The position numbers were made by a program, and so were the translations under genes. A stretch of DNA of 64,000 bases from an uncultured Gemmatimonadales bacterium. GTDB taxonomy: Bacteria; Gemmatimonadota; Gemmatimonadetes; Gemmatimonadales; GWC2-71-9. Below, piece by piece: positions 45,508 to 60,453 of this stretch. The notes under the pieces are model-generated. The model worked only from the letters and a program-made list of their open reading frames with translations, searched no databases and had not been told where the DNA came from. The stretch lies in assembly GCA_963817435.1 (NCBI GenBank), contig CAWFNY010000004.1:22080-86079 (forward strand), written 5' to 3'. Position 1 is the stretch's first letter; each line of letters opens with the position of its first letter.

Positions 45508-47139
45508 TCAGCCTGCCTTTGCCGCCGGGACGCGACTCATGGCATACTCGGCGAGCGCGGTGATCGTCAGACTGGGATTGACCCCGGGGTTGGCGGGCAT
45601 GATCGAGCCGTCGATCACGTACAGCCCCGGGTAGCCGTGCACCTGGCAGTCAGCATCGATCACACCCTCCCCGGCGTTCCGCCCCATCGGACAGCCACCC
45701 AGAATGTGCGCCGTGATCGGGATGTCGAACAGCCCCTCATTGACAGACCCCATCGCGATGCCGTTGGTCCGTTCGGCGAACGTCCGGGTCACCTGGTGCC
45801 CGATCGCGATCTTGGTCGGAATGGTCGCCTCGTTGTCCGGCTGGGAGACGAGATCCCTCCTGAATCCGGTGAAGAGGCTGCGGCCAGGGCGCAGGCGGAT
45901 GCGGTTGTCCTCCCACTGCATTGCCAGCATGATCGTGGTCCGCTCCGCCCAGCCCGGCAGCAGGTGCGTCCGCATGAACTCGCCCGGGTGCCGCACAAGG
46001 TGCAGCGCCGACTGACCGAGGCGCGATGCCAGGCTGCCGGATTCGATCATCGGCCCGCCGAGCAGGCGCATGGCCGAGGAACCTGCGGGGTAACGCACCG
46101 GCTCGATCGTCGTCACCGCATCGGCCCGGAAGATCGAGGTGATCGCGATGCCCTTCGAGTAGTCGATGTCGGCGCTCCGGGCGACGCTGCCGAGCAGCGC
46201 TTCGTTGTTGGTGCGGACCATGTCACCGAGCCGCGGTGAAAGCCCGCGGAGCGAACCGGTGACCTCCCGGCAGCGGAAGAGCAGGCGCAGCGACCCCAGG
46301 GTCCCCGCGGAGACGATGACGTGGCGCGCGCGAATCGGCGCCATGTGGCGGTGCAGCAGGCCCGTCGTGCGCCTGGCGTGCACCTCGTACCGCGCTCCGT
46401 CCTGCTGCGGTCCCGCCAGTGGCCGGATGTCGCGGACGGTCGCCTCCGCGATGATCGTGGCGCCCCACTTCTCGGCGAAGTGCAGATAGTTCTTGGGCAG
46501 CGTGTTCTTCGAGTTAAGCTGGCATCCCACCATGCAGCCGCCGCAGTGAGTACAGGCCCGCCGCGCCGGTCCTTCACCACCGAAGTAGGGATCGGGAACC
46601 TCCACACCCTCCTGCCCCGGCGCGCCGAAGAAGGTCCCGACCGGCACCGGCCGGAAGCTCTCTCCGCGTCCGAGTTCCTCGGCGATCCTGCGCAGTTGCT
46701 GATCGGCGGGCCACAGCCTCGGATTCTCGGCGACGCCCAGCATGCGCTTCGCCGTGGCGTAGTGCGGTTGCAGCTCGCGCTTCCACTCGATCGGTCGCTG
46801 CCACGCCGGCGAGTTGAAGGCCTCGTCGCCCGGCTCCATGAGCACGTTAGCATAGCCGAGGCTCCCGCCACCGACGCCCGCGCCATGCAGCACGAACACG
46901 TTCTTGAACGGGCTGATCTGCAGGATGCCGTAACAGCCGACCGAGGGCGCCCACAGATACCGCGGCAGGTCCCACGTGCTGCGCGCGAAGTCCTGATCGC
47001 GGAATCGCCGGCCGCGCTCCAGCACCAGCACCCGATAGCCCTTCTCCGCCAGCCGCATCGCGGAGACGCTGCCACCGAAGCCGGAGCCGATGATGATGTA
47101 GTCGAATGTCTCGGTCACGACGAACGCTATCCACCTCAT
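45508..47139 (-). CDS. GMC oxidoreductase, cholesterol oxidase (ChoD)-like
   Basis: IIGSGFGGSVSA, GVGGGSLGYAN, CTHCGGCMVGC, KNTLPKNYL, TAHILGG, NPGVNPSLTITALAE. Confidence 0.88.
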   Translation of the reverse strand: MRWIAFVVTETFDYIIIGSGFGGSVSAMRLAEKGYRVLVLERGRRFRDQDFARSTWDLPRYLWAPSVGCYGILQISPFKNVFVLHGAGVGGGSLGYANVLMEPGDEAFNSPAWQRPIEWKRELQPHYATAKRMLGVAENPRLWPADQQLRRIAEELGRGESFRPVPVGTFFGAPGQEGVEVPDPYFGGEGPARRACTHCGGCMVGCQLNSKNTLPKNYLHFAEKWGATIIAEATVRDIRPLAGPQQDGARYEVHARRTTGLLHRHMAPIRARHVIVSAGTLGSLRLLFRCREVTGSLRGLSPRLGDMVRTNNEALLGSVARSADIDYSKGIAITSIFRADAVTTIEPVRYPAGSSAMRLLGGPMIESGSLASRLGQSALHLVRHPGEFMRTHLLPGWAERTTIMLAMQWEDNRIRLRPGRSLFTGFRRDLVSQPDNEATIPTKIAIGHQVTRTFAERTNGIAMGSVNEGLFDIPITAHILGGCPMGRNAGEGVIDADCQVHGYPGLYVIDGSIMPANPGVNPSLTITALAEYAMSRVPAAKAG

Positions 47140-47236: not shown

Positions 47237-48136
47237 ATGAAGCTGCTGGAAGAGCTCGCGCGACGACAGCTCGTGGTCGTCACTGGCAAGGGCGGCGTCG
47301 GCAAGACGACGCTCGCTGCCGCGATCGGGCGTCTGCTTGCCGCGAGTGGCCGCCGGACGCTTCTCCTCGAGGTCGATCCCCGCGAGAGTCTCCATCAGCT
47401 TCTCGGTACGGAGCCGTCCGGCGGCCAGGTGGTGAAGGCCGGAACTCGCCTTGCCTCACAGAATCTGCAGGCCCGCGCGGTCGTGGATGGGCTGGTCCGT
47501 GAGAAGCTTCCCATCGCTGCCCTCGCGAGCAAGGTCATCGCCAGCTCCGTCTTCCAGCATTTCGCGGAGGGAGCACCCGGGCTCAAGGAGATGGCGGTCC
47601 TCGGGTATGCCCTCCGCACCGTCGAGGGTCACAACCGTCACAAGGCGGACGTCGTGGTCCTCGACGCGCCCGCGACCGGGCACAGTGCGTCGATGCTCGC
47701 GGCTCCCCTGGTGCTCTCCGACGCCATCGGCGGCGGCCAGCTCGGCGAGATGGCCAGGGAACTCGCCGGGTTCATCGCCGATCCCAAACGCTGCGGCGTG
47801 GTGCTGACGGCCATCGCCGAAGAGATGCCGGTCCAGGAAGCACTCGAACTGATCGCACTGCTCAGGGAGAAGATCGGCCGTCCGCCCGAGCTGCTCATCG
47901 CGAACGCCCTCTATCCGCCATTCCCGTCAGGCATCCCGGCCGGCCGCGCCTCCAGTGGCGACACGACGGCGGTTCTCGATCTCTGGCGCCAGCGGCGGGC
48001 CGTGAACGAACGGGAACTCAAGCGCCTCCGGGCCGGCTGGGCGGGGCCGATCGCCGAGATCCCGCTCCTCCCGGTCGACCGCGGTCCCGGCCTGCTCGCC
48101 GGGGTCGAATCGGCGCTCGCCGTGGCATTGCGATGA
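47237..48136 (+). CDS. ArsA/Get3-family ATPase, subunit 1
   Basis: TGKGGVGKTT, DAPATGH, EEMPVQEALE. No metal-binding Cys cluster. Confidence 0.88.
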   Translation: MKLLEELARRQLVVVTGKGGVGKTTLAAAIGRLLAASGRRTLLLEVDPRESLHQLLGTEPSGGQVVKAGTRLASQNLQARAVVDGLVREKLPIAALASKVIASSVFQHFAEGAPGLKEMAVLGYALRTVEGHNRHKADVVVLDAPATGHSASMLAAPLVLSDAIGGGQLGEMARELAGFIADPKRCGVVLTAIAEEMPVQEALELIALLREKIGRPPELLIANALYPPFPSGIPAGRASSGDTTAVLDLWRQRRAVNERELKRLRAGWAGPIAEIPLLPVDRGPGLLAGVESALAVALR

Positions 48137-49194
48137 GCCTCGGACCACTGGATCAGCGATTGCTGGTGGTGGTCGGCGCGGGAGGCGTCGGCAAGACCAC
48201 GCTTGCCGCCGCCCTCGGACTCCAGTCCGCCCGGGCCGGCAAGCACACGCTCGTCATGACCTTCGACCCATCCCTTCGGCTCAAGGACGCCCTCGGCGTC
48301 GGAGACGAGGCGAGAGAACGGGCGGTGCGGGTGAAGTCGGGTACCAAAGGCCGCCTCGATGTCGCCCTGCTCGATGCACGCACCACGTTCGACCGGCTGA
48401 TTCGCCGGTACGCTCCCGATGATGCCGCCGCCGAGCGGATCTTCAGCAACCGTTTCTATCGGGATCTCGCCGGGAACCTCGCCGGCATCCTCGAGTATAT
48501 GGCCGTCGAGCGCCTCTTCGAAGTGGCCGCGGACGGCAGCTACGATCGCATCATCCTCGACACCCCACCGACGCGGCAGGCGCTCGACTTCCTCGAGGCG
48601 CCGGACCGGATCGTGAACTTTCTCGACAGCGGGGCGGTGCGCCTCGCATTGAAGCCGTGGTGGGAGAAGGGCGGCGGACTCAAGCGGATGCCGATGCGGA
48701 TCGCGGCCAGGGGCGTCGAGCAGATCGTGGACCGGGTGATCGGCGTCCGGCTGCTGCAGGACATGCTCGAATTCTTCCGCGCCTTCGGTCCACTCTATGA
48801 TGGATTTCGCGGGCGAGCGAGCGACGTACGGGCGCTGCTGCGCGCCCCCGATTCGCTGTTTCTCCTGGTCAGCGGGCCCGGCGTGGATCGCATCCCCGAT
48901 ACGCTGTTCTTCGCCCGAAAGCTCAAGGAGGCGGGGCACCGGGTCGGCCCGATCGTGGTGAACCAGGTCCATCCCGCGGCGCCGTTGGCGAAGGGCGTCT
49001 CGCCGGACCTGGCCGAGGGGCTTTCACTGTTCCATTACCTGGGAGAGCGGGATCGGCACGGCCTGGAGCGGTTGCGCCAGCTGCTTTCCCGCGGCGAGCC
49101 GCTGCTGGCGATTCCGCTGCAGGCATCACCTCCGACCGACCTGGCGGAGTTGGAGGCGCTGGGTCGGGTCATCCGGGCGCAACTCGATCACTGA
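48133..49194 (+). CDS. ArsA/Get3-family ATPase, subunit 2
   Basis: GAGGVGKTT, TFDPSLRLKDALG, DTPPTRQALDFLEAP. ATGA overlap with subunit 1. Confidence 0.88.
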   Translation: MSLGPLDQRLLVVVGAGGVGKTTLAAALGLQSARAGKHTLVMTFDPSLRLKDALGVGDEARERAVRVKSGTKGRLDVALLDARTTFDRLIRRYAPDDAAAERIFSNRFYRDLAGNLAGILEYMAVERLFEVAADGSYDRIILDTPPTRQALDFLEAPDRIVNFLDSGAVRLALKPWWEKGGGLKRMPMRIAARGVEQIVDRVIGVRLLQDMLEFFRAFGPLYDGFRGRASDVRALLRAPDSLFLLVSGPGVDRIPDTLFFARKLKEAGHRVGPIVVNQVHPAAPLAKGVSPDLAEGLSLFHYLGERDRHGLERLRQLLSRGEPLLAIPLQASPPTDLAELEALGRVIRAQLDH

Positions 49195-49220
49195 GCCGGC
49201 CTCTTGCGGGCCGCGCTGCC

Positions 49221-49254
49221 AAGGCCGACACCTCCCCCGCGAGGTGTCGGCCTT
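49221..49254 (+). terminator. 14-bp hairpin after the ArsA pair
   Basis: aaggccgacacctc-ccccgc-gaggtgtcggcctt followed by cttc. Confidence 0.7.
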
Positions 49255-49298
49255 CTTCATGGTCCCGCCGCCGTGGATATCCCACGTGCGGGTGGGGG

Positions 49299-49348
49299 TT
49301 GCCGCAATGCGACATTCTGGGGGTTGCTTTTTTGCCGCAATGCGGTAA
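49299..49348. promoter_or_regulatory. Tandem TGC-rich palindromic operators (putative PhaR-type sites)
   Basis: ttgccgcaatgcg occurs at 49299 and 49332. The second copy is the near-palindrome ttgccgca-a-tgcggtaa. Confidence 0.6.
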
Positions 49349-49377
49349 GTTGGTTTCGTCCACATCGGAGGCGCATC

Positions 49378-49833
49378 ATGATCCGGCTCATCAAGCGGTA
49401 TGGCGGCGGCAGCCGAAAGCTCTACGACACGGAAGAGAGCCGCTATGTCTCGCTCGACGAGATCGCGGTATGGATCCGGGACGGTCAGGAGTTGCAGGTG
49501 GTGGACAGCGCGACCGGGGAGGATGTGACCGGTCAGACTCTGGCGCAAATCATCTATGAAGATCACAAGCGCGGCTATTCATTCCTGCCGAGTGAATTCC
49601 TTCACGACCTGATTCGGCGTGGAGGGCGCGTGATCGCCGATGGTGTCGAACAGCTTCAGACCGGCGTGGATCGCATCGTGAAGGCTTCCGTCGACAAGAT
49701 CAGCCCGGTGGGCGGCATGCAGGATGAACTGGACCTGTTGCGTGAGCGGCTGGCGGAGCTGGAGCAATCGCTGGTGCAGCTTGAGGAGGCGCCGAAGGCC
49801 CGGAAGCCGAGACGCAAGAAAGTCAGGACTTAG
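49378..49833 (+). CDS. PhaR-like regulator with PHA-synthesis-regulator DNA-binding domain
   Basis: IKRYGGGSRKLYDTEESRYVSL...VVDSATGEDVTGQTLAQII; coiled-coil and basic tail. Confidence 0.85.
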   Translation: MIRLIKRYGGGSRKLYDTEESRYVSLDEIAVWIRDGQELQVVDSATGEDVTGQTLAQIIYEDHKRGYSFLPSEFLHDLIRRGGRVIADGVEQLQTGVDRIVKASVDKISPVGGMQDELDLLRERLAELEQSLVQLEEAPKARKPRRKKVRT

Positions 49834-49911
49834 GAATTCGCCCCACGTTTGTTGCACGTGTCACTCATAGCAGCGTCCGGCCCCCGATGGCCGGCAACCC
49901 CGGAGGAAACC

Positions 49912-50331
49912 ATGGCGGCCAAGAAGAATTCCAAGAAGACCCAGGCGCTCCCGATGCTGAAGGAGTCGGCCCACGAGATCTGGCTGGCTGGTCTGGGCGC
50001 GTTCGCGCTCGCCGGCGAAGAGGGCGGCAAGCTCTTCGGTCAGCTCGTGAAGAAGGGTGAAGGCATGGAGAAGATGAACAAGGCGCGGATCAGCAACCTC
50101 GTGAGCCGTGCGGGTGATCTGCAGGGTGATGCGAAGCATGCCGTCGCCCGGCTCACCACGCCGATCGAGGCGGGTATGACCAATGCGATGCATCGCCTCG
50201 GCGTCCCGACCCGCAAGGAGATCGCGACCCTGACCAAGCGGGTCGAGGAACTGACCCGGGTGGTTGCCAAGAAGACCAATGGGCGGAAGGCGACCCGTCG
50301 TGTTCCGAAGGTTGCTCACGCCCGCGCCTGA
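49912..50331 (+). CDS. Phasin family granule-associated protein
   Basis: IWLAGLGAF, LFGQLVKKGE, LGVPTRKEIATLTKRVEEL (PhaF/PhaI-like). Confidence 0.88.
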   Translation: MAAKKNSKKTQALPMLKESAHEIWLAGLGAFALAGEEGGKLFGQLVKKGEGMEKMNKARISNLVSRAGDLQGDAKHAVARLTTPIEAGMTNAMHRLGVPTRKEIATLTKRVEELTRVVAKKTNGRKATRRVPKVAHARA

Positions 50332-50342
50332 GTGAGGTCCAT

Positions 50343-51584
50343 ATGACCACCGCGCGCCGAGGGCGGCGGGGTAGCCGGCTGGGGCTTGCCCTGGCCGGCG
50401 GGGGTCCGGCGGGTGCCGTCTATGAGATTGGCGCCCTCCGGGCCCTCGAGGAAGCGATCGAGGGCCTCGATCTGAACCAATGCGAGGTCTACGTCGGCGT
50501 CAGCGCGGGCGCATTCGTTGCCGCCTCGATGGCCAATGGGCAGACTTCCGAGCAGCTGGTTCGCGGTCTCGTGACCGATGAGCCGGGCGAACACCCCTTT
50601 GATCCAACCAGTTTCTTCAAGCCGGCCTACGGGGAGTGGATCCGCCGCGGGATGCAGCTCCCGGGGCTCATCGCCCATGCGGTGTGGCAAGTCTCCAACG
50701 CGCCACACGAAGAAACGCTGATGAAGTCGCTGGTCCGTGTCTCCCGGGCCCTTCCGCTCGGTCTGTTTGACAACGAACCGATCCGGCGGCACCTCGAACG
50801 GACCTTCGCGATCCGGGGTCGCACCAACGACTTCCGGAAGCTCAAACGGAAGCTCCGCGTGGTCTCGGCGGACCTGGAGGCGGGCACCCCGATCGTCTTC
50901 GGGTCCGAGGGATGGGACCATGTCCCGATCTCCCGTGCCGTTCAGGCGAGCACCGCGGTGCCCGGGCTCTATCCACCGGTCGAGATCGATGACCGCCTGT
51001 GCGTGGATGGCGTGCTGCTCAAGACGCTGCACGCTTCGGTGGCCCTCGAGGCCGGGGCAGACCTCCTGCTTTGCGTGAATCCTCTGGTGCCGGTGAATCT
51101 GTCGGCTGGAGAGATCCGGGGTGAACTTCCGCGTGGCGCCCTGATGCGGCGCGGAATCCCGGCGATCCTCTCTCAGACCTTCCGCACCATGATCCACTCG
51201 CGGATGGTGGTTGGGATGGCTGGCTATCGCAATCGGTATCCCGGTGCGGATGTGGTGCTATTCGAGCCGGAGCGCAGCGAGTACGGTCTCTTCTTCAGCA
51301 ATATCTTCAGCTTCGCCTCTCGCAGGGAAATCTGTCAGATCGGCTATTCCGCCACCCGCCGGGACCTGTGGCGCCGGCGCGCGGAGCTGGAGCCGATGCT
51401 CAAGCGGCATGGCTTCCGGCTGAAGACCGAACTGCTCGAAAATCCGGAGCAGGATATCTGGAAGGCAGTCGGGATTACCAGGAAGGGATACTCCGCGCCG
51501 GTGACAGACCGGCTTTCGACGGTGCTCGAACGTCTGGAGGCCCGGAGCCGTCCCCGCCGTCGTCCTGCACGACGCACCGCGTAG
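50343..51584 (+). CDS. Patatin-like phospholipase/lipase
   Basis: LAGGGPAG, GVSAG, ASTAVPG, DGV. Confidence 0.9.
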   Translation: MTTARRGRRGSRLGLALAGGGPAGAVYEIGALRALEEAIEGLDLNQCEVYVGVSAGAFVAASMANGQTSEQLVRGLVTDEPGEHPFDPTSFFKPAYGEWIRRGMQLPGLIAHAVWQVSNAPHEETLMKSLVRVSRALPLGLFDNEPIRRHLERTFAIRGRTNDFRKLKRKLRVVSADLEAGTPIVFGSEGWDHVPISRAVQASTAVPGLYPPVEIDDRLCVDGVLLKTLHASVALEAGADLLLCVNPLVPVNLSAGEIRGELPRGALMRRGIPAILSQTFRTMIHSRMVVGMAGYRNRYPGADVVLFEPERSEYGLFFSNIFSFASRREICQIGYSATRRDLWRRRAELEPMLKRHGFRLKTELLENPEQDIWKAVGITRKGYSAPVTDRLSTVLERLEARSRPRRRPARRTA

Positions 51585-51607
51585 ACGCGCCCGCCGGGCG
51601 CGTCTAC
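51581..51607. terminator. Bidirectional hairpin spanning the convergent stops of patatin and WS/DGAT
   Basis: gtagacgcgccc-gcc-gggcgcgtctac, a 12-bp stem containing both stop codons. Confidence 0.65.
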
Positions 51608-52893
51608 AGCGTGCGGAGGGCCTCGAGTTCTTCCTCGAACGCGCGCATGAGTACGCGGGCATCCGGCACCAGGACGGTATCCGCCAGGATGCCCACCTGG
51701 ACGTGCCCCGCGAAACTCAGGATTGAAATTCCCACGCCGATATCGGCGCGCTGCGGTACCCAGAACATCAGGCCCCGCACCCGTCGTCCCGCCAGGATCA
51801 GCTCCCGCTGCGGCCCGGGCACGTTGGTCACCACGGCCGTGCACTTGTTGGCGAGGAAGTCGATGAGTCCGCGACTGACCCCCTGCGGCAGCAGGGTCAG
51901 CATCGCGTGCTGGATGCCGTACACCACGATCGGCACCACCGACTGCTTGAGGGCATCCATCTGGACCTTCACCGCCCGGACCCGATCGCCGATATGCTCG
52001 ATGCCGGCCGGCAACTCGAGTGGCACCGCCGCGAACCGATTCTCGAGCCGCAGCGGCTCTTCCGCCGACCGGATATTGACCGGCATCGAGATATGCAGTT
52101 TGCGGATCGTCTGGCCGGCCTGGGTGGCGAGGTAGCGGCTGAACGCACCCGATACGACCGCCATCAGCACGTCGTTGACCGTGGCATCCAGTCGCTGACG
52201 TGCCTGCTTCACGACGGCCAGGTCGAAGGGCGCGGTCCAGGCGACCTGCTTCCGGCCGGAAACCTTCGCGCCGTGCAGTGCATGGCGGTCCGGCTGCCAG
52301 AGCAGCCGCCTGAGGAGGATTCCCGGTGCAGCCAGCGGTACGCGGATCGCCCTCAGGAATCCCTTGCCCAATGCGCCAGCCGCGGGGCGGATCCGGTCTT
52401 TCGCCGGTACCGTCTCATGCTCCGAGGTCATCTCTTCCATCAGTGCGAAGATGACCGCGATCAGCGCGATCCCGTCGCCAATGCTGTGGTGAATCCGCGC
52501 GAGGATCACGCTCGATTCGGTCCCGTAACTCTCGATCACCTGGAACTGCCAGGGCGGGCGATCGGCCGGCAGCGGCGTCGAGGCTTCCTCGCCTAGATAC
52601 CGCTGCAGTTCTTCGATGGTGGCGAGCTCGTTCTCCCGGGCGGGGATCACGTGCCGCCTGATATCGAATTCGGGGTCTCGCTCCCAGTACGGCGCTCCGC
52701 GGACATGGATGACCCGATCGCGAAAGCGCGCGTACTGCGTCCCGCCACCGGCGTCGATCACCCGGCTCTGGAAGGTCTCACGGAAGGTGGCCAGGTCGAT
52801 CTGGTCGGTGATGAAGACCCCGTTGATCACCATCAGATTCGTGGCGGTATCCTGCAGCCACACCGCATCGTGTCCCGAGACTCGTTCGCGCAT
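51604..52893 (-). CDS. Wax ester synthase/diacylglycerol acyltransferase (WS/DGAT)
   Basis: DAVWL, RPPWQ, HHSIGDG (HHxxxDG), TVNDV, MPVNIR, TNVPGP, SFAG. Confidence 0.92.
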   Translation of the reverse strand: MRERVSGHDAVWLQDTATNLMVINGVFITDQIDLATFRETFQSRVIDAGGGTQYARFRDRVIHVRGAPYWERDPEFDIRRHVIPARENELATIEELQRYLGEEASTPLPADRPPWQFQVIESYGTESSVILARIHHSIGDGIALIAVIFALMEEMTSEHETVPAKDRIRPAAGALGKGFLRAIRVPLAAPGILLRRLLWQPDRHALHGAKVSGRKQVAWTAPFDLAVVKQARQRLDATVNDVLMAVVSGAFSRYLATQAGQTIRKLHISMPVNIRSAEEPLRLENRFAAVPLELPAGIEHIGDRVRAVKVQMDALKQSVVPIVVYGIQHAMLTLLPQGVSRGLIDFLANKCTAVVTNVPGPQRELILAGRRVRGLMFWVPQRADIGVGISILSFAGHVQVGILADTVLVPDARVLMRAFEEELEALRTL

Positions 52894-52897
52894 CGAC

Positions 52898-54577
52898 TCA
52901 GCTCCGGCGGATGGCGAGAAAGAAGGCGATGACGAACAGCCCGCTCCAGACCGGCCATGGGGCGGCGAAGCCCATCGCGATGGCCCCCGCCACGAGACAG
53001 GAGCCTGCGATCAGCGTCCCCCGCAAACCCTTGAGGGGATTCTCCGTTGGCTGATGGGCGACTCGCTCGAGCACCCTGAGTCCGTCGGTGACCAGGAGCG
53101 GCATCTTGGCCATGGCGTCGACCATGTCCGGCGCGCCCCGCATGCCCTCGGTCAACAGCCGAAGCGGGCTGAACTGCTGGATGAACAGGGCGCGGATATG
53201 CTTCTTCGACACCTCGGCGACGTCGAAGCCGGGGAGCAGGACATGGCCGACGCCCTCGAAGGTCACCAGTGCCTTGACCATCAGCACCAGTTCGACGGGG
53301 AAGTACATCCCATGCTGCGCGCCGCGGCTCAGCGAGTCGAGGATGAGCTGTCCCAGCGAATATCCCTCGAAGGTCGAGGTGCGCTTCCAGCGGTTGGCGA
53401 TCTCGGCGACCTCACGCCGGAAGGCCGCCGGATTGGCATCCGGGCCCGGCTTGGCGATGGCCGAGAGATAGCGCGCGGAATTGTCGGCGTCCCCCATGAC
53501 CAGCGCGAAGTAGTAGTAGAGCAGCGCCCGCCGCAGATCCTCGTCGAGGCGCCCCACCATGCCGAGATCGATGAAGCCGATCTGCGGGCCGGGAAGGATC
53601 ATCAGGTTGCCCGGGTGCAGGTCGGCGTGGAAGAAGCCGTCGCGGTAGAGCATCCTGATGATCGACTCGGCGCCGCGGTCGGTCAGGTGCCGGCGCTCTT
53701 CCTCTGGGAGGGCCTGGGCCTCCTCGGAATCGGGGCGGATTCCGTCGAAGAACTCCATGGTGAGCACGCTGCGGCCCGAGAGGTCGCGGTAGATCGCGGG
53801 GAAGACCACGTCGGGGGTGTCGGCGAAATTAGCCGCAAAGGTCTCCGCGTTGTCAGCCTCCCGGCGCAGGTCGACCTCGCGCAGGGTGTAATCGGAGAAC
53901 TCGGTGACCAGCTGCTTGGGCTGATAGCGGGGGATGATCAGTTCTGCCAGGCTGCCTAGGAGACCGAGGAGCTTCGCGTCGCGCTGCAGCGTCTCCCGGA
54001 TGCCCGGCTTGACCACCTTGATGACGACCGGGTCGCCATCGTTGGTCGTGGCCCGGTGGGTCTGGCCGATCGAGGCGGATCCGAGCGGGATCGGATCGAT
54101 CTGCAGGAAGAGCTCCGCGACCGGGCGGTGCAGGTCCCTCTCGATAATGGAAGTCAGCACCGGCAGTGGCACCACCGGCAGCTGATTGAGAAGCGACCTG
54201 AGTTCGGTGGTGATGCTCTTCGGGAGCAGGTCTTCCCGGAGACTCAGGATCTGTCCCAGCTTGATGTAGGTGGGCCCGAGCCGCTCGAGCCGGCGGCGGA
54301 ACTGCACCGCGAACGGCTGGGCGCGCAGCTCGCGATCCACGAAGGGCGCGGAGACCGCCGCCACCAGCCGGATCAGCAGGAACTTGAAGCCGCGGCCGGT
54401 GCCCTCCTCCCGTTCGTGCCGGACGTAGGCGGCCAGGCCCCCGAAGAGCAGACCGAGGAAGTGCCGGTAGGTCGCCGCGAAGCGGGTGAGCAGGCCCGGT
54501 GGCCGCGTCACCCGCATGATCTCGAAGCCGTGGGCGCGGAGCAGGTCCTCGTTCGACGGGTCAGCGATTGCGGCCAT
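52898..54577 (-). CDS. ABC1/UbiB/AarF family atypical kinase
   Basis: LGPTYIKLGQILS, LGSASIGQTH, VIKV, GFFHADLHPGN, IDLGMVG. Confidence 0.92.
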   Translation of the reverse strand: MAAIADPSNEDLLRAHGFEIMRVTRPPGLLTRFAATYRHFLGLLFGGLAAYVRHEREEGTGRGFKFLLIRLVAAVSAPFVDRELRAQPFAVQFRRRLERLGPTYIKLGQILSLREDLLPKSITTELRSLLNQLPVVPLPVLTSIIERDLHRPVAELFLQIDPIPLGSASIGQTHRATTNDGDPVVIKVVKPGIRETLQRDAKLLGLLGSLAELIIPRYQPKQLVTEFSDYTLREVDLRREADNAETFAANFADTPDVVFPAIYRDLSGRSVLTMEFFDGIRPDSEEAQALPEEERRHLTDRGAESIIRMLYRDGFFHADLHPGNLMILPGPQIGFIDLGMVGRLDEDLRRALLYYYFALVMGDADNSARYLSAIAKPGPDANPAAFRREVAEIANRWKRTSTFEGYSLGQLILDSLSRGAQHGMYFPVELVLMVKALVTFEGVGHVLLPGFDVAEVSKKHIRALFIQQFSPLRLLTEGMRGAPDMVDAMAKMPLLVTDGLRVLERVAHQPTENPLKGLRGTLIAGSCLVAGAIAMGFAAPWPVWSGLFVIAFFLAIRRS

Positions 54578-56102
54578 ACTCCTCGTGCGACGAGACCCAT
54601 TCCAGCGATGAGATCGCGGCTGCCAGCGAAATCTCGCCCGCCAGCACCACGCCGGCCACGATCTCGGCGAACTTGTTCACCTTTCCCTTGCCGACGCAGC
54701 CGAGCACCCCAAGGCATTCCCGCTGAGTGGGGAGATGGGTGCCGCCGCCGTGGGTTGCGACGATGAGTGATGGAATGGTGATCGACAGATACAGATCCTT
54801 CTCCGCGGTGAGCTCGGTGTAGACGATGCCCGCCGAACCTTCCGCGACGTTGGCGACGTCCTGTCCGGTCGCGATGAACATCGCCGTGATCGCATTGGGC
54901 GAATGGAGGCCGTTGTTGTTGGCGCCCGACAGGATTGCCCCGATATTGGCGACCCCCCAATGGTAATGGAGGCTCTCCGGCTCCACCCGCATCACCTCCA
55001 GCAGGACATCCCGCTTGATCACGCATTCCGCCGTCACCCGCTTGCCGCGGGTGCGCATGAGGTTCACCTGGGAGGCCTTCTTGTCCGTGGCGAGGTTGGA
55101 CTCCAGGTAGAACCGCCGGATGGACTTGTTGTTCTCCAGGATCCAGCTGCTGGCGGCGTAGGTGGCGCGCCCCACCATGTTCTGGCCCGCCGCGTCGCCG
55201 GTGAAATAGTTGAAGCGCAGGAACGCGAACTTGCTCGCCAGATAGGTGTCGATGTACTGCAGCTTGCCGACACGGGTAGTGGCCTCCGCCTCGCGACGGA
55301 TATCGTCCATGTGGGCGTCCACCCAGTCCCGGAAGGCGCGGGCCTCCCGCGCCGTATCGAACACGAAGACCGGCGCCCGCTGCATGTGATCTCCCTGGAT
55401 GGTGCAGACCGCGCCACCGCAGAGGTTGAGCACCTTCATGCCCCGGTTGTAGCTCGCGACGAGTGTGCCCTCTGTCGTGGCCAGCGGGATGACATATTCG
55501 CCGGTGGCGTACTCGCCATTGATCTTGAGCGGACCCGCGAAGCCCAGCGGAACCTGGGCGACGCCGGTGAAGTTCTCGATGTTGCCCCTGGTCTCAAGGG
55601 GGTCGAAGGACTGCTTGTCGACGTGATCGAGCTTGGTGCCGCTGAACTCCTCCACCCAGCGCTGGCGCTTCGAAACGACCTCCCGGGAGTAGTTGTCCTC
55701 CTTGGAGTACGGCACCGCCTTGGGACGGGCCAGCGGGGCGGCGACGTGGTCCTTCACCTTGACGGTGAGCGCGCCGACGCCCTTGACCTCGATCCCGATC
55801 TCGATGTCGACCGTGCCGTCCGGCAGCGTGCGGCCCGGGACGCGCAGGTGGGCCACTCGGCGGAGCGGGAATTCCTCCGGTCGTTCCGGTGTCACCTCAG
55901 TGGCCGGGCGCCAGTGACCGTCGCCCAGGTCTACCTGCAGGTCCTTCGCCAGGATTTCGAGTTCATTGAGTCGCAGGCGCGCGATCCCGATCAGCGTGAC
56001 GTCGCTCAGGCGGTTCTTGAGGCTGAGGCGGCAGCCGTCCGGATCGTTGACGAGCGAGCCGAACGTGTACATCTGGCGCAGGAGCAACTGGGGGATCTTC
56101 AT
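54561..56102 (-). CDS. hmgA: Class I HMG-CoA reductase with an extra ~135-aa N-terminal domain
   Basis: IENFTG, PLATTEGTLVAS, TGDAAGQNM, DKK, TGQDVAN, C-terminal His (SHEEYGRNR). Confidence 0.88.
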   Translation of the reverse strand: MKIPQLLLRQMYTFGSLVNDPDGCRLSLKNRLSDVTLIGIARLRLNELEILAKDLQVDLGDGHWRPATEVTPERPEEFPLRRVAHLRVPGRTLPDGTVDIEIGIEVKGVGALTVKVKDHVAAPLARPKAVPYSKEDNYSREVVSKRQRWVEEFSGTKLDHVDKQSFDPLETRGNIENFTGVAQVPLGFAGPLKINGEYATGEYVIPLATTEGTLVASYNRGMKVLNLCGGAVCTIQGDHMQRAPVFVFDTAREARAFRDWVDAHMDDIRREAEATTRVGKLQYIDTYLASKFAFLRFNYFTGDAAGQNMVGRATYAASSWILENNKSIRRFYLESNLATDKKASQVNLMRTRGKRVTAECVIKRDVLLEVMRVEPESLHYHWGVANIGAILSGANNNGLHSPNAITAMFIATGQDVANVAEGSAGIVYTELTAEKDLYLSITIPSLIVATHGGGTHLPTQRECLGVLGCVGKGKVNKFAEIVAGVVLAGEISLAAAISSLEWVSSHEEYGRNR

Positions 56103-56165
56103 GGATTGGTCCGGAAGATGTGGTCCGAGGCTCTAATGTGTCATACGATGCGACCCACCGCCAAC

Positions 56166-56981
56166 TCAGCCCTCCCAGGGCAGGGTGCCGGTCTCGAGTC
56201 CGCGCAGCAGCGCGGCGACTTCCAAGGGCCGCTCGGTCGGCACGGCGTGGCCCACGCCGGGATAGGAAATCAGCCGTGAGTGGGGCAGCCGGCGGTGCAT
56301 CGCCAGCGACCACCGGGGCCGCAGCACCTTGTCGGCCGAGCCGGAGATGATCAGCGTCGGTGTCTGCAGTTCCCCCAGCTGCTCGAGCAGCGAGGGGCGC
56401 CGGGCGACCGCCCGCAGCGCCTGTACCAGCGCCGGGGCGCGCATGGCGCGGACCACGCTTTCCCAGCGGGTGACCTCGCCTGGATTCCGCTTCCGGAAGG
56501 CCGGGCTGAAGGCGCTGCGCGAGGCCTCGTGAGCGAGGAATTTCGGCGCGCCGGCGATTTCGATGATTTTCGCGAGCGCCTTGATCTCCGCGACCCGCAC
56601 CAGTTCCTCCGCCGCGGCGCTGGTGCCGATCAGCGCGAGTCCGCGCAGCCGGTCACGGTGCCGCAGCGCGAAATCCGCAGCCGCCATGCCGCCCATGCTG
56701 AAGCCCGCGAGGATGAGCTTCGGGAGGCTGAGTTGCTGCACGATCGCGAACAGGTCGTCGGCGAGGTCGGCGATCGTCCAGGGCGTGGCCGGAACGTCGC
56801 TGCGCCCGTGCCCGCGGAGGTCAGGCACCACCACCCGGTGGTCGCGCGCCAGTTCGTCGCGGAGCTTCGCGAACATGCCGGCATCGCACCACATGCCGTG
56901 CGCGAGAAGCACCACCGGCCCCGTGCCGACGTCGTCGACGCAGAGCCGGAGATCTCCGCGCGTGATCCAGCGCTCGGTCAC
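56166..56981 (-). CDS. Alpha/beta hydrolase
   Basis: LAHG, PDLRGHGRS, GFSMGG, GSAD, GVGH. Confidence 0.9.
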   Translation of the reverse strand: MTERWITRGDLRLCVDDVGTGPVVLLAHGMWCDAGMFAKLRDELARDHRVVVPDLRGHGRSDVPATPWTIADLADDLFAIVQQLSLPKLILAGFSMGGMAAADFALRHRDRLRGLALIGTSAAAEELVRVAEIKALAKIIEIAGAPKFLAHEASRSAFSPAFRKRNPGEVTRWESVVRAMRAPALVQALRAVARRPSLLEQLGELQTPTLIISGSADKVLRPRWSLAMHRRLPHSRLISYPGVGHAVPTERPLEVAALLRGLETGTLPWEG

Positions 56982-57036
56982 GCGGACGGCGCCGTCGGGG
57001 CGCCCACTTCGGGGGCGCCAATGAAGCTGAGTCGCA

Positions 57037-57657
57037 TCAGCGGCTGTCCTCAAGGGAATGGAGATCGTCCGGCGTGTCCACGTCGGGATTGGCGCCGGGC
57101 ACATCAACGGTCGTGATCGCCTCGGGGCGGTCACGGACGACCGGACCGAGTCCCGTGTCTCCACGTAGCGAGTCCGCCAGCGGCCAGAGCGAACGGTCGA
57201 GAAGGACCGGATGTCCCGGCGCGTCGCGGTGCAGGGCATACCGCGGCCGCACGCTCAGCCCCGTCTCCCGCCATCGCGCGACGAGCGTGCTGATGGTGCT
57301 GGTACGGAGCAGCGGCTGGTCCGCCAGCACGATCAGCGCGGCATCCGCCCGGGGCTCCACCCCGGAGAGTGCGGCCAGACCACGCCTAAGAGAGGTGGCG
57401 AGGCCGGCGCCGGCGTCCGGATTCTCGACGATCTGGAGTCCTGCCATTTCCAGCGCCCACACGAGCGCAGTTGAGTGTGGCGGCACGACCGCGACTCCTC
57501 CCGCGAGCACGCCACCGAAGATGGCCTCCGCCACCGTGGTCGCGACGTGGGAGATCAGCGCTCGCCCCTGGAATGGCGCGAGCAGCTTGTCGCCGCCGAA
57601 GCGGGAACCGGCCCCTGCGGCCAGGACGACGGCGTACGGAGCCGGCTGGGTCATCAT
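57037..57657 (-). CDS. MocA/MobA-like molybdenum cofactor nucleotidyltransferase
   Basis: VVLAAGAGSRFGGDKLL, GLATSL, LADQP, GHPVL, GDTG, DVDTPDD. Confidence 0.88.
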   Translation of the reverse strand: MMTQPAPYAVVLAAGAGSRFGGDKLLAPFQGRALISHVATTVAEAIFGGVLAGGVAVVPPHSTALVWALEMAGLQIVENPDAGAGLATSLRRGLAALSGVEPRADAALIVLADQPLLRTSTISTLVARWRETGLSVRPRYALHRDAPGHPVLLDRSLWPLADSLRGDTGLGPVVRDRPEAITTVDVPGANPDVDTPDDLHSLEDSR

Positions 57658-58390: not shown

Positions 58391-59971
58391 TCACCCCAGC
58401 TGCTCGTACGCCGGCAGCGTGAGGAAGTCTTCCGGCGCCGCTCCGAGTACCAGGTGATCCATCAGCGCGGCGGAACTGGCCAGCCGTTCCGTCGATCCAG
58501 GCACGGCCGCAAGCTTGGCGGTCTCCTCCGCCCGGAGCTGCCGATAGAGCTCTGCGGTACAGCGCCGGCCGTCCGCCAGCGTGACGCCCTGACTCACCCA
58601 CTGCCTGAGCTGGGTGCGGGAGATTTCGGCGGTGGCGGAGTCCTCCATCAGATTGGCGATCCCCACCGCGCCCCGCCCGTCCAGCCAGTTCTCGATGTAC
58701 TCGAGCGCGACCCGGATGTTCGTCCGGAGCCCCGATTCACTCACCTGACCGCCGGCAATCCGCACGTTGAGCAGCTGGTCGCGTGTGGTGTGCACCTCTT
58801 CCCGCAGCCGGTCCTTCTGGTTCGGCCGGGTACCGAGCCTGGCGTTGAAGACCTCGAGCACTGCGCCTACCAGGTCGGGATGGGCCACCCAGGAGCCATC
58901 GAAGCCGTCCGCCGCCTCACGCGTCTTGTCTTCGCCGACCCGCATCATCGCCGTGGCGTTGACCTCCGCATCCTTCCGCGAGGGGATGAACGCCGCCATG
59001 CCGCCGATGGCGTGGGCGCCACGGCGATGGCAGGTACGGACCAGCAGCTCGGTGTAGGCCCGCATGAACGGCACCGTCATGGTGACCTGGCTTCGGTCGG
59101 GCAGGACGAATTCGGGCCGGTGGCCGAAGTTCTTCAGGATCGAGAAGATGTAGTCCCACCGGCCGGCGTTGAGTCCGCTGGCATGGTCGCGGATCTCGTA
59201 GAGGATCTCCTCCATCTCGAAGGCGGCGAGAATGGTCTCGATGAGCACCGTCGCCCGGATGGTGCCCTGGGGAATCCCCAGGGCCGACTGGGCGTGCACG
59301 AAGACGTCGTTCCACAGCCTGGCCTCGAGATGGCTCTCCAGCTTGGGAAGGTAGAAGTAGGGTCCGCTGCCCCGGCGGAGCAGTTCGGCGGCGTTATGGA
59401 AAAAGTAGAGCCCGAAATCGAAGAGACTGCCCGACACCGGCGCGCCATCGAGGAGGACATGCTTCTCGTTCAGGTGCCAGCCCCGCGGCCGGACGACCAG
59501 CGTGGCAATCGTCTCGGCCAGCCGGTATTCCCTCCCGTCCGGCGCCCGGAAGGTGATGGTCCGTCGTACCGCGTCCTGGCAGTTCCCCTGTCCCGCAATC
59601 ACGTTCTCCCACGTCGGGGATAGCGCGTCCTCGAAGTCGCCCATGAAGACCTTTGCCCCCGAATTGAAGGCGTTGATCATCATCTTGCGCTCGACCGGCC
59701 CGGTGATCTCCACCCGGCGGTCATCCAGGTCGGCCGGTGCCGGTGCCACCCGCCAGGGGCCCTCCCGGACGCTGATCGTGTCGCGGAGGAAATCGGGGAG
59801 GGCGCCGGCCTGAAAGGTCTGGCGCCGTTCACGCCGTGTCTGCAGCAGGGCCTGGCGTCTCGGCTCGAAGCGCTGGAAGAGATCGGTGATGAAGCCGAGG
59901 GCGTCCGGGGTGAGGACGCGATCGCTGTCTGAGAGTGCCGGGCCGATGATCTTGAGTGGAGCGCGGTTCAT
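58391..59971 (-). CDS. aceB: Malate synthase A
   Basis: [83 protein letters not shown]. Confidence 0.96.
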
Positions 59972-60062
59972 GACGTCGAACTCGTGACGGGAGGCAGGGG
60001 GCGTGGAGTGGGATCTGGCCCTGAATTGTAGCCACCCGCGCCGCGAACGCTGGGTGGCTCGC

Positions 60063-60449
60063 CTATTCGGCGGGCCCTACCCGCGGCGGGCAGGCGTCCA
60101 GCCAGACCTGTTCCGCGGGGTCGAAGACACGCGATCGGGTCAGGAAGCGGACGCCGAGCGGCGCCTCGAGGGAGAAGCCGCCGCCGCGGCCCGGCACCAC
60201 GTCGATCAGGAGCTGGGTGTGGCGCCAGAGGTCGTACTGCTGCCCGCCGATGTAGACCGGCACGCCCGCGACGTCGCCAAGGTGCACGTCCCGCGCGCCC
60301 ACCCGGAATTCCCGCGCCGGGTAGCACATCGGCGAGCTGCCGTCGCAGCAGCCGCCGGACTGGTGAAAGAGCAGCGGACCGTGCTCAGCCACCAGCTGGC
60401 TGAGCACGGCCCGCGCCTCAGGGGTGATGTCGACCCGCTGTACGGTCAC
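60063..60449 (-). CDS. DUF779 family protein
   Basis: [45 protein letters not shown]; typical neighbour of aldB. Confidence 0.92.
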
Positions 60450-60453
60450 CGGC

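What the first reader, a model, noticed from the sequence alone, without database searches (positions are those of the whole stretch)
51604..56102. Class I HMG-CoA reductase translationally coupled to an ABC1 kinase and WS/DGAT, with no other mevalonate genes nearby
Seen: hmgA overlaps the ABC1 kinase start by 17 bp, and the kinase stop is 4 bp from the WS/DGAT start. The catalytic motifs (TTEG, DKK, GQD, C-terminal His) look intact. Established: HMGR reduces a CoA-thioester to a primary alcohol and normally clusters with mvaS/mvk/pmk/mvd; some WS/DGATs make isoprenoid wax esters; ABC1 kinases handle prenyl-lipids. Inference: either prenyl-ester storage, or a repurposed HMGR that supplies an alcohol acceptor to WS/DGAT.
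Basis: partly seen in the sequence, partly recalled or inferred. Interest (0 to 1): 0.62.

Follow-up and report, generated by a model that had tools for sequence, protein, structure and literature searches.

The report
Wax-ester operon with HMGR-derived reductase
The supposed orphan HMG-CoA reductase is almost certainly an FcrA-type fatty acyl-CoA reductase (a family published in 2025) that makes fatty alcohols for the wax-ester synthase two genes downstream; what has not been reported is the ABC1/UbiB-type kinase-like gene that always sits beside it.

Summary
Three minus-strand genes are tightly coupled: an HMGR-like gene (513 aa), an ABC1/UbiB-like gene (559 aa, 17-nt overlap) and WS/DGAT (429 aa, 4-nt gap).

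The genome (Gemmatimonadota, 97.7% complete) has one HMGR homolog. It has no HMG-CoA synthase and no mevalonate, phosphomevalonate or diphosphomevalonate enzymes. It does have Dxr and IspE, so it uses the MEP route.

The "HMGR" is not a mevalonate enzyme:
- It carries the N-terminal Lad domain (PF25653).
- It keeps the four catalytic residues.
- It has all three FcrA-specific pocket changes: S684E, K735A and L862W.
- It misses the HMGR equivalog cut-off.
- It groups with Promineifilaceae FcrA homologs, away from true HMGRs.

FcrA was shown in 2025 (PMC11948995) to reduce C14+ acyl-CoA to fatty alcohol and not to act on HMG-CoA.

Not in that paper: in 121 Gemmatimonadota genomes the ABC1 ortholog occurs in exactly the 10 that have FcrA, always within 4 kb. 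The operon lies in a conserved island with patatin, phasin, PhaR, BagAB-like ATPases and a GMC oxidase. The genome has no PHA synthase.

The parts
54561..56102 (-). fcrA: HMGR-derived fatty acyl-CoA reductase, 513 aa. Lad domain at residues 7-120; catalytic core at residues 143-511.
   Evidence: Pfam hits PF25653 and PF00368. TIGR00533 scores 343 bits, below its 441.8 cut-off. FcrA signature residues E334, A385, W502 and the motif GDAAGQN are present, and catalytic E211/K341/D415/H506 are kept. The protein falls in the FcrA clade with 97/96 support.
55743..56084 (-). Lad (long-chain alkyl carrier) N-terminal beta domain of FcrA
   Evidence: PF25653 matches positions 1-114 of 115, E 8e-26. The AF2 model shows nine beta strands at pLDDT 80-91, followed by a low-confidence linker at residues 121-139. 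This fits the description in PMC11948995.
52898..54577 (-). ABC1/UbiB-family atypical kinase-like protein, 559 aa, with a C-terminal hydrophobic hairpin. Its start overlaps fcrA by 17 nt.
   Evidence: PF03109. UbiB equivalog TIGR01982 scores 331 bits, below its 487.55 cut-off. Motifs KLGQ106, SASIGQTH167, K187, E234, HADLHPGN317 and D337 are at least 95% conserved in 38 orthologs, and there are TM-like segments at 520-556. It co-occurs with FcrA in 10 of 10 carrier genomes and in 0 of 111 others.
51604..52893 (-). WS/DGAT wax-ester synthase/acyltransferase, 429 aa, HHSIGDG at residues 135-141
   Evidence: PF03007 and PF06974. TIGR02946 scores 273 bits, below its 309.95 cut-off. It is the only copy in the genome. 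It is conserved directly after ABC1 in the own genus, in Holophagaceae and in Solibacteraceae.
51581..51607 (-). 12-bp GC-rich hairpin that overlaps the WS/DGAT stop codon, between the convergent WS/DGAT and patatin genes. Probable bidirectional terminator.
   Evidence: Fold energy -35.4 kcal/mol, z -3.05. There is no U-tract, so the role is inferred.
56166..57239 (-). alpha/beta-fold hydrolase (GFSMG at residues 179-183) 63 nt upstream of fcrA. The true start is probably near residue 85. Candidate esterase.
   Evidence: Pfam Abhydrolase_1/6. Conserved upstream of fcrA in Gemmatimonadales loci. The substrate is unknown.
50343..51584 (+). patatin-like lipase (GVSAG at residues 52-56), convergent on the operon
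   Evidence: PF01734. It is kept beside the cluster in five Gemmatimonadota genera, in Holophagaceae, and in Bacteroidota/Balneolota loci.
49849..50331 (+). phasin-family granule-coat protein
   Evidence: PF05597 and TIGR01837. Conserved with the cluster. The genome has no PHA synthase.
49204..49833 (+). PhaR-like granule-associated regulator
   Evidence: PF07879 and TIGR01848 at 78 bits, below its cut-off. Conserved with the cluster.
47237..49194 (+). pair of Get3/ArsA-fold ATPases, BagA-like then BagB-like
   Evidence: PF02374. NF053622 scores 84.6 bits and NF053621 scores 226.8 bits, both below their cut-offs. Conserved in Gemmatimonadales, Holophagaceae and L040.
45508..47139 (-). GMC oxidoreductase (cholesterol-oxidase-like). 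Candidate long-chain alcohol oxidase.
   Evidence: GMC_oxred_N/C. NF058674 scores 549 bits, below its 850 cut-off. It is also next to fcrA in Thermoanaerobaculia and lies 0.3 to 5.7 kb downstream of fcrA in three Calditrichia loci. The function is inferred.

Best explanation
This is a wax-ester biosynthesis operon, not a mevalonate gene.

Gene 1 is FcrA, a class-I-HMGR-derived, probably NADPH-dependent reductase. [quoted passage not shown] Its N-terminal Lad beta domain probably carries the alkyl chain.

Gene 3, WS/DGAT, esterifies that alcohol with a second acyl-CoA to give wax ester (possibly also triacylglycerol). The product is probably stored in lipid bodies. These would be coated and regulated by the phasin and PhaR-like proteins encoded opposite, and mobilised by the patatin lipase and the alpha/beta hydrolase.

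Gene 2 is translationally coupled between the two enzymes. It is a catalytically intact, membrane- or droplet-anchored ABC1/UbiB-family ATPase/kinase that serves the fatty-alcohol pathway. It most likely handles the hydrophobic intermediate at the membrane or droplet surface, or phospho-regulates the enzymes, as ABC1K proteins are thought to do on plastoglobules.

Shown here: gene order, coupling, family signatures, absence of the MVA pathway and of ubiquinone synthesis, and co-occurrence.
Shown by others for a homolog in the same FcrA clade (not retrieved here): the FcrA reaction.
Inferred: the wax ester product in this organism, the droplet association, and the role of ABC1.
For: 1. FcrA identity.
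- Domain architecture is PF25653 plus PF00368.
- In alignment with solved HMGRs 6hr7 and 8ecg, and with a genuine Gemmatimonadota HMGR from an MVA cluster (L098, TIGR00533 442.6 bits, at or above cut-off), the canonical motifs are LSGN, KN, L-x3-H and GDAMGMN. Ours and all 30 other FcrA-type sequences in that alignment have (L/V/I)E(S/A)N, a residue other than Lys with a one-residue deletion, and (G/A)D(A/G)AGQN; 27 of the 30 also have W-x3-H (two have F, one C).
- These are the substitutions Grossi et al. give for FcrA.
- The tree separates the canonical clade (100/99) from the FcrA clade (97/96). The FcrA clade holds ours together with three Promineifilaceae proteins.
- The AF2 model gives a confident all-beta N-terminal domain plus linker.

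2. No mevalonate pathway.
- There is a single PF00368 locus.
- The four GHMP kinases are GalK, IspE, an HddA-like protein and ThrB.
- The only HMGS-like hits are two FabH genes.
- Dxr is present.

3. Biochemistry of the family (PMC11948995). Pb-FcrA reduces C14+ acyl-CoA with NADPH, does not reduce HMG-CoA, and is insensitive to simvastatin. Expressed with WS/DGAT in E. coli, it yields wax esters.

4. Linkage.
- The fcrA-ABC1 pair is directly adjacent in 25 of 26 Gemmatimonadota loci counted as having enough flank (one has none downstream) and in 5 of 8 Acidobacteriota loci.
- In a sample of 121 Gemmatimonadota genomes, the FcrA clade and the ABC1 ortholog occur in the same 10 genomes and in no others, always within 4 kb. 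Fisher p is 8e-15, but the genomes represent only five genera.
- The overlapping start is conserved.

5. ABC1 is intact and is not UbiB proper.
- All kinase-like motifs are at least 95% conserved.
- No UbiG is found above cut-off.

6. Storage context.
- Patatin, phasin and PhaR are conserved around the cluster in several phyla.
- No PHA synthase is found.
Against: - No enzyme from this genome has been assayed, and no lipid data exist for this organism.
- The exact sequence of the characterised Pb-FcrA could not be retrieved. The link therefore runs through Promineifilaceae homologs that are 63-65% identical to ours.
- WS/DGAT scores below the TIGR02946 cut-off, and its acceptor preference (fatty alcohol or diacylglycerol) is unknown.
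- Six of the ten Gemmatimonadota genomes with fcrA-ABC1 carry a PlsC-like acyltransferase in place of WS/DGAT. The conserved core may therefore make a fatty-alcohol lipid other than wax ester in those lineages.
- ABC1 is dispensable for FcrA activity as such. Pb-FcrA works alone in vitro, and the Chloroflexota FcrA genomes have no ABC1 ortholog.
Confidence: 0.85

Rival explanations
1. The gene is a true class I HMG-CoA reductase. It would make mevalonate, or an isoprenoid alcohol that WS/DGAT esterifies (prenyl-ester storage), with the ABC1 kinase acting on prenyl lipids.
For: The fold and all four catalytic residues are those of class I HMGR. Some WS/DGATs are known to accept isoprenoid alcohols, and ABC1 proteins are linked to prenyl-quinone metabolism; both points are general knowledge, not tested here.
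Against: - The genome has no HMGS, MVK, PMK or MVD, while the MEP genes Dxr and IspE are present.
- The HMG-binding residues S684, K735 and L862 are replaced by E, A and W.
- The score is below the TIGR00533 cut-off, which a real Gemmatimonadota HMGR inside an MVA cluster passes.
- The characterised family member does not reduce HMG-CoA.
- No UbiG is found.
Confidence: 0.03
2. FcrA and ABC1 mainly feed a lipid other than storage wax ester, such as alkyl ether lipids or another fatty-alcohol conjugate. Here WS/DGAT would act chiefly as a DGAT making triacylglycerol.
For: - In other Gemmatimonadota genera, and in Bacteroidota and Balneolota loci, the slot after ABC1 holds a PlsC-like acyltransferase (PF01553) rather than WS/DGAT.
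- Grossi et al. note that FcrA often occurs without WS/DGAT and may supply ether-lipid synthesis.
- WS/DGAT occurs in only 4 of the 10 sampled fcrA-ABC1 genomes.
Against: - In this window WS/DGAT is coupled 4 nt after ABC1 and is the only WS/DGAT in the genome.
- The genome has no homolog of the PlsC-like protein.
- Phasin, PhaR and patatin point to a storage body that is coated and then mobilised.
- FcrA plus a WS/DGAT is sufficient for wax esters in E. coli.
Confidence: 0.1
3. The ABC1 gene is an ordinary UbiB-type quinone-biosynthesis factor, or a neutral passenger, that happens to lie between the two lipid genes.
For: The best NCBIfam hit is the UbiB equivalog, and sources name it "ubiquinone biosynthesis protein". 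FcrA works without it in vitro and in Chloroflexota.
Against: - The score is below the UbiB cut-off, and the genome has no UbiG.
- A separate paralog, 32% identical, exists elsewhere in the genome.
- It co-occurs with FcrA in every sampled carrier genome and in none of the other 111 genomes, always within 4 kb, across five genera.
- Linkage persists in Acidobacteriota, Balneolota, Rhodothermota and Bacteroidota even when the neighbouring acyltransferase differs.
- The overlapping start is conserved.
Confidence: 0.05

Closest known systems
FcrA, the HMGR-derived fatty acyl-CoA reductase, acting in the FcrA + WS/DGAT wax-ester pathway (Grossi et al. 2025, ISME J, PMC11948995; Pb-FcrA of Ca. Promineifilum breve, FcrA of Natronomonas pharaonis)
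   Same: - Same two-domain architecture (Lad plus HMGR core).
- Same retained catalytic E/K/D/H.
- Same three pocket substitutions.
- Same absence of the mevalonate pathway in the host.
- Same clade as Promineifilaceae homologs, which are 63-65% identical.
- WS/DGAT lies in the same operon. The paper mentions one Holophagaceae contig with the two genes "next to" each other.
   Different: - The host phylum (Gemmatimonadota) is not mentioned in the paper's main text or in its supplement as held.
- An ABC1/UbiB-family gene is inserted between fcrA and WS/DGAT and overlaps fcrA. The paper does not mention any kinase, ABC1 or UbiB.
- The surrounding island of phasin, PhaR, patatin, BagAB-like ATPases and GMC oxidase is not described there.
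- This protein has not been assayed.
Class I HMG-CoA reductase (human HMGCR 1DQ9; Methanothermococcus thermolithotrophicus 6HR7; Arabidopsis HMGR1 8ECG)
   Same: Same fold and catalytic tetrad, the same predicted four-electron thioester-to-alcohol chemistry, and the C-terminal helix carrying the catalytic His.
   Different: - The HMG-binding residues are replaced (S684E, K735A, L862W).
- DAMGMN becomes DAAGQN.
- There is an extra N-terminal beta domain.
- The score is below the equivalog cut-off.
- No mevalonate pathway partners are present.
- The protein sits on a separate, well-supported branch.
ABC1K atypical kinases of plastoglobules and cyanoglobules (for example Synechocystis slr1919, sll0005 and sll1770; PMC12223511), and the UbiB/COQ8 family generally
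   Same: The ABC1 domain has all family motifs intact. The protein is associated, here by gene linkage, with a neutral-lipid body machinery that includes an acyltransferase. It has a hydrophobic anchor.
   Different: - The lipid context is fatty alcohol and wax ester, not prenyl-quinone.
- Droplet localisation is untested.
- The organism makes no ubiquinone.
- The gene is translationally coupled to a reductase, which has not been reported for any ABC1K.
FarA/AcrB (Maqu_2220, Maqu_2507) and Acr1 fatty acyl-CoA reductases of Marinobacter and Acinetobacter wax-ester pathways
   Same: Same pathway role: supplying fatty alcohol to WS/DGAT.
   Different: The fold is unrelated (SDR/NAD_binding_4). 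This genome gives only weak generic SDR hits to PF07993, the best at 46 bits.

Membership tests
FcrA (HMGR-derived fatty acyl-CoA reductase) | Class I HMGR catalytic core with E559/K691/D767/H866 equivalents retained | tested here: met
   E211, K341, D415 and H506 are present. PF00368 matches at E 1.4e-123.
FcrA (HMGR-derived fatty acyl-CoA reductase) | Pocket substitutions: S684 to Glu, K735 to a small residue, L862 to a bulky aromatic (Trp) | tested here: met
   E334 (LESN), A385 (GVAN, with a one-residue deletion) and W502 (WVSSH). Canonical enzymes have LSGN, KN and L-x3-H. The criteria come; the paper prints Lys795, which by position is K735.
FcrA (HMGR-derived fatty acyl-CoA reductase) | N-terminal Lad beta domain joined by a flexible linker (present in part of the family) | tested here: met
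   PF25653 covers residues 7-120. The AF2 model shows nine strands at pLDDT 80-91 and a linker at 121-139 with low confidence.
FcrA (HMGR-derived fatty acyl-CoA reductase) | Falls in the monophyletic FcrA clade with the characterised Pb-FcrA, apart from mevalonate-forming HMGRs | tested here: met
   The clade has 97/96 support and includes three Promineifilaceae proteins. The canonical clade has 100/99 support. Caveat: the exact Pb-FcrA sequence (CUS01882.1) was not retrieved.
FcrA (HMGR-derived fatty acyl-CoA reductase) | Host lacks the rest of the mevalonate pathway | tested here: met
FcrA (HMGR-derived fatty acyl-CoA reductase) | Reduces C14+ acyl-CoA to alcohol with NADPH, does not reduce HMG-CoA, and is statin-insensitive | not testable with these tools
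   This needs an enzyme assay.
Class I HMG-CoA reductase (mevalonate-forming, TIGR00533) | Score at or above the curated equivalog cut-off | tested here: not met
   343.1 bits against a 441.8 cut-off. The control HMGR from a Gemmatimonadota MVA cluster scores 442.6.
Class I HMG-CoA reductase (mevalonate-forming, TIGR00533) | HMG-binding residues S684, K735 and L862, and the DAMGMN motif | tested here: not met
   All four are changed.
WS/DGAT | HHxxxDG active-site motif and both WS/DGAT domains | tested here: met
   HHSIGDG at residues 135-141. PF03007 and PF06974 both match.
WS/DGAT | Score at or above the TIGR02946 subfamily cut-off | tested here: not met
   273.4 bits against 309.95. This is a divergent member.
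UbiB (ubiquinone biosynthesis regulatory kinase-like protein) | Equivalog-level score, and a ubiquinone pathway in the genome | tested here: not met
   TIGR01982 scores 331 bits against 487.55. The best UbiG hit is 42.6 bits against 102.95.
ABC1/UbiB superfamily | ABC1 domain with KxGQ, the Ala-rich loop, catalytic Lys, HxDxHPxN and DxG | tested here: met
   One search gives the domain; one search shows the motifs and their conservation in 38 orthologs.
Lipid-droplet ABC1K (plastoglobule/cyanoglobule type) | Resides on neutral-lipid droplets | not testable with these tools
   Only gene linkage to the phasin, patatin and WS/DGAT genes, plus a C-terminal hydrophobic hairpin.

The most novel reading that the evidence does not exclude
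The FcrA-linked ABC1/UbiB-family protein is a dedicated, functionally required component of bacterial fatty-alcohol and wax-ester body formation. It would be a non-photosynthetic, non-quinone counterpart of plastoglobule ABC1 kinases.

Its role would be to couple FcrA to the downstream acyltransferase (WS/DGAT or PlsC-like) at the membrane or droplet surface, either by ATP-driven handling of the hydrophobic alcohol or by phosphorylating the enzymes.

Because the pathway has only two enzymes and can be reconstituted in E. coli, it would give an unusually simple assay for what UbiB-family proteins actually do.
Probability: 0.4. Interest if true: 0.65.

Novelty: new member of a known kind. Interest (0 to 1): 0.4.

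Why it matters
It corrects an annotation. Public sources call these genes "hydroxymethylglutaryl-CoA reductase" and "ubiquinone biosynthesis protein", which would wrongly suggest mevalonate and ubiquinone metabolism in Gemmatimonadota.

It extends the 2025 FcrA wax-ester route to soil and wastewater Gemmatimonadota and Acidobacteriota. It also shows a shared, apparently transferable island for making, coating and mobilising neutral lipid in genomes without PHA synthase.

The strict FcrA-ABC1 pairing offers a tractable handle on the biochemical role of UbiB/ABC1 proteins, which remains unsettled.

Tried and rejected
- **Prenyl-ester or true-HMGR reading.** Rejected on the pathway inventory and the pocket residues.
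- **Retrieving the exact Pb-FcrA sequence.** It is not in the paper's supplement. It did not appear by name among the 120 listed relatives of a Promineifilaceae query. Promineifilaceae homologs were used instead.
- **PF07993 search for FarA/AcrB/Acr1-type reductases.** The model hits all 14 control genomes and gave only weak SDR hits here (46 bits or less), so it is only weak evidence that no classical reductase is present.
- **Promoter and terminator consensus scan.** It found nothing above shuffled expectation. Only the hairpin after WS/DGAT stands out.
- **AF2 monomer model.** The N-terminal domain is confident, but the catalytic core is patchy (mean pLDDT 68). I made no claim about pocket shape and ran no fold search.
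- **Plus-strand ORFs across the region** (for example 52616-53959 and 54903-56279). I treated them as shadow frames of a 66% GC sequence and did not test them further.
- **Literature searches linking ABC1/UbiB with FcrA, fatty alcohol or wax esters.** Nothing was found.


Full report
**1. Observation**

The window is 66-70% GC. It is part of a 4.12-Mb, 97.7%-complete genome.

Three ORFs lie head to tail on the minus strand:
- 56102..54561, 513 aa
- 54577..52898, 559 aa
- 52893..51604, 429 aa

The sequence shows the 17-nt overlap (ATGGCCGCAATCGCTGA) and the 4-nt spacer (TGA GTCG ATG) directly.

Pfam assigns PF25653 plus PF00368 to the first gene, PF03109 to the second, and PF03007 plus PF06974 to the third.

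The overlapping ATG arises from the Tyr-Gly codons of the first gene. The frame behind it nevertheless stays open through in-frame indels in Gemmatimonadales and in a Holophagaceae locus. Two loci lack the alternative internal ATG, and one uses TGATG. The coupling is therefore real and conserved.

**2. Pathway inventory**

- The genome has one PF00368 locus.
- Its four GHMP kinases are galactokinase, IspE, an HddA-like sugar kinase and homoserine kinase. None is a mevalonate kinase, phosphomevalonate kinase or diphosphomevalonate decarboxylase.
- The only hits to HMG-CoA synthase are two FabH genes.
- Dxr is present.

The organism therefore uses the MEP route, and the "HMGR" has no pathway to serve.

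**3. What the first gene is**

A full-text search found Grossi et al. 2025 (PMC11948995). They describe FcrA, a class-I-HMGR homolog that often carries an N-terminal beta domain called Lad.

Their purified enzyme from Ca. Promineifilum breve has these properties:
- It reduces C14+ acyl-CoA to alcohol with NADPH.
- It does not reduce HMG-CoA.
- It is not inhibited by simvastatin.
- Expressed with a WS/DGAT in E. coli, it gives wax esters.

Their diagnostic features are: the catalytic tetrad is retained; human S684 becomes Glu; a conserved Lys (K735 by position, although the paper prints Lys795) becomes a small residue; and L862 becomes Trp.

Alignment to solved HMGRs 6hr7 and 8ecg shows all of these in our protein. 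In a 34-sequence alignment the split is largely clean:
- Canonical enzymes have LSGN / KN / L-x3-H / GDAMGMN. This group includes a Gemmatimonadota HMGR that sits in a mevalonate cluster and passes TIGR00533.
- Every FcrA-type protein has a Glu in place of S684, a residue other than Lys (usually small) plus a one-residue deletion at K735, and an AGQN-type motif; 28 of the 31 have W-x3-H (two distant ones have Phe, one has Cys).

Further support:
- Our protein scores 343 bits on TIGR00533, against a cut-off of 441.8.
- A maximum-likelihood tree separates the canonical clade (100/99) from an FcrA clade (97/96). The FcrA clade contains ours and three Promineifilaceae proteins.
- An AF2 model gives a confident nine-strand N-terminal domain followed by a disordered linker.

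I could not retrieve the exact characterised sequence. Homologs from its family are 63-65% identical to ours.

**4. The ABC1 gene**

The gene is intact. KxGQ, the Ala-rich loop, K187, the HADLHPGN loop and D337 are at least 95% conserved in 38 orthologs. The C-terminus forms a hydrophobic hairpin at residues 520-556.

It is not UbiB in the strict sense:
- It scores below the equivalog cut-off.
- The genome has no UbiG.
- A separate paralog, 32% identical, exists elsewhere in the genome.

In 121 evenly drawn Gemmatimonadota genomes, the FcrA clade occurs in 10. The ABC1 ortholog occurs in exactly those 10, adjacent in 8 and 3.6 kb away in 2. WS/DGAT occurs in only 4 of them. A naive Fisher p is 8e-15, but the carriers represent only five genera.

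Across 80 FcrA loci from many phyla:
- The pair is adjacent in 25 of 26 Gemmatimonadota loci counted as having enough flank (one of them has none downstream) and in 5 of 8 Acidobacteriota loci.
- ABC1 lies within 1.5-3.5 kb in Bacteroidota, Balneolota and Rhodothermota loci.
- An ortholog lies elsewhere in the genome in Calditrichia.
- It is absent from all Chloroflexota FcrA genomes.

It is therefore a lineage-restricted accessory, not a requirement of the reductase. The FcrA paper does not mention it, and I found no other paper that links it to FcrA or wax esters.

The nearest precedent is the ABC1K family on plastoglobules and cyanoglobules. In Synechocystis, three of four ABC1Ks are droplet proteins alongside a DGAT2-like enzyme.

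**5. Surroundings**

Convergent on the operon is a plus-strand string: two Get3/ArsA-fold ATPases (BagA- and BagB-like), a PhaR-like regulator, a phasin and a patatin lipase. A GMC (cholesterol-oxidase-like) oxidoreductase lies beyond it.

Upstream on the minus strand lie an alpha/beta hydrolase, a MocA-like transferase, malate synthase A and an ExaC aldehyde dehydrogenase.

This arrangement is conserved in Gemmatimonadales. It appears gene for gene on a 3.5-Mb Holophagaceae contig with independent Pfam calls. The genome has no class I or class III PHA synthase, so the phasin and PhaR-like proteins probably serve the wax-ester bodies.

In five other Gemmatimonadota genomes, and in a Bacteroidota and a Balneolales locus, the slot after ABC1 holds a PlsC-like acyltransferase instead of WS/DGAT. 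The stable core is therefore FcrA, ABC1, an acyltransferase, patatin and phasin.

In the tree, our FcrA is sister to Holophagaceae and Solibacteraceae rather than to other Gemmatimonadota (100/99). This suggests the WS/DGAT version of the island moved between phyla.

**6. Mechanism**

The proposed steps, with their status:
1. FadD-activated acyl-CoA is reduced by FcrA to fatty alcohol. The chemistry was shown for a homolog in the same clade; here it is inferred from the signature.
2. WS/DGAT esterifies the alcohol to wax ester (inferred).
3. Phasin and PhaR coat and regulate the bodies (inferred).
4. Patatin and the hydrolase release alcohol and acid (inferred).
5. The GMC oxidase and an aldehyde dehydrogenase could return the alcohol to the acid pool (inferred).
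6. Malate synthase fits growth on the resulting acetyl-CoA (inferred).

ABC1 most likely acts at the membrane or droplet surface on the alcohol hand-over, or on the enzymes themselves. This is inference.

**7. Verdict**

The prenyl-ester idea is rejected.

The locus is a new member of a known kind. The unreported and testable feature is the strict pairing with an ABC1/UbiB-family protein inside a conserved lipid-body island.

Earlier follow-up notes of this scan reached the same reading in other genomes. I count them as agreement, not as evidence.

Noticed in passing
window 47237-49194 (+): Two adjacent Get3/ArsA-fold ATPases, BagA- and BagB-like (below cut-offs), travel with the lipid island in Gemmatimonadales, Holophagaceae and one Acidobacteriota locus. 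The ABC1 protein is anchored by a C-terminal hairpin, so a role in inserting it, or in positioning droplets, is conceivable but untested.
   Followed up: partly
window 49204-50331 (+): PhaR-like and phasin genes occur in a genome with no detectable class I or class III PHA synthase. They stay linked to fcrA-ABC1 across several phyla. This suggests PHA-type coat and regulator proteins have been reused for wax-ester bodies.
   Followed up: partly
window 45508-47139 (-); also L043, L044, L052, L055, L063: A cholesterol-oxidase-like GMC oxidoreductase lies beside the island. It is also immediately next to fcrA in Thermoanaerobaculia and 0.3 to 5.7 kb downstream of it in Calditrichia, making it a candidate long-chain alcohol oxidase for remobilisation.
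   Followed up: partly
L090-L095 (G051, G081, G054, G016, G074, G102); L067, L075, L084: In these genomes the gene after ABC1 is a roughly 400-aa PlsC-like acyltransferase (PF01553) instead of WS/DGAT. The island appears to have an exchangeable acyltransferase slot. The product in these lineages is unknown.
   Followed up: partly
L092-L095: In four Gemmatimonadota genomes the tblastn match to FcrA begins at residue 60 in one and about 130 to 154 in the other three. They apparently lack most or all of the Lad domain, yet keep ABC1 directly downstream. The gene starts were not examined.
   Followed up: no
L098 (G084:C5:26000-41000): A class-level relative in Gemmatimonadota carries a genuine class I HMGR that passes TIGR00533. 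It sits with mevalonate kinase, type 2 IPP isomerase and a prenyl synthase, so part of the phylum does have mevalonate genes.
   Followed up: partly
L097 (G106:C67), 6890-8755: A distant HMGR-like gene (39% identical, Phe in place of Trp at the L862 position) is followed 3 nt later by an AGPAT-type acyltransferase. The search counted one in-frame TAA inside the match, 45 nt before the ATG of the ORF listed here.
   Followed up: no
window 57037-57657 (-): A MocA-like molybdenum-cofactor cytidylyltransferase lies upstream of the hydrolase and fcrA in most Gemmatimonadales loci. I see no link to lipid metabolism.
   Followed up: no
tree: Our FcrA, together with that of a second Gemmatimonadales genome (L022), is sister to Holophagaceae and Solibacteraceae FcrA (100/99) rather than to FcrA of other Gemmatimonadota genera. 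Together with the gene-for-gene island in Holophagaceae, this points to horizontal transfer between phyla.
   Followed up: partly
window 58391-62088 (-): Malate synthase A and an ExaC-type aldehyde dehydrogenase lie upstream on the same strand. Malate synthase lies upstream in many Gemmatimonadales loci, and an aldehyde dehydrogenase is adjacent to fcrA in Holophagaceae.
   Followed up: no
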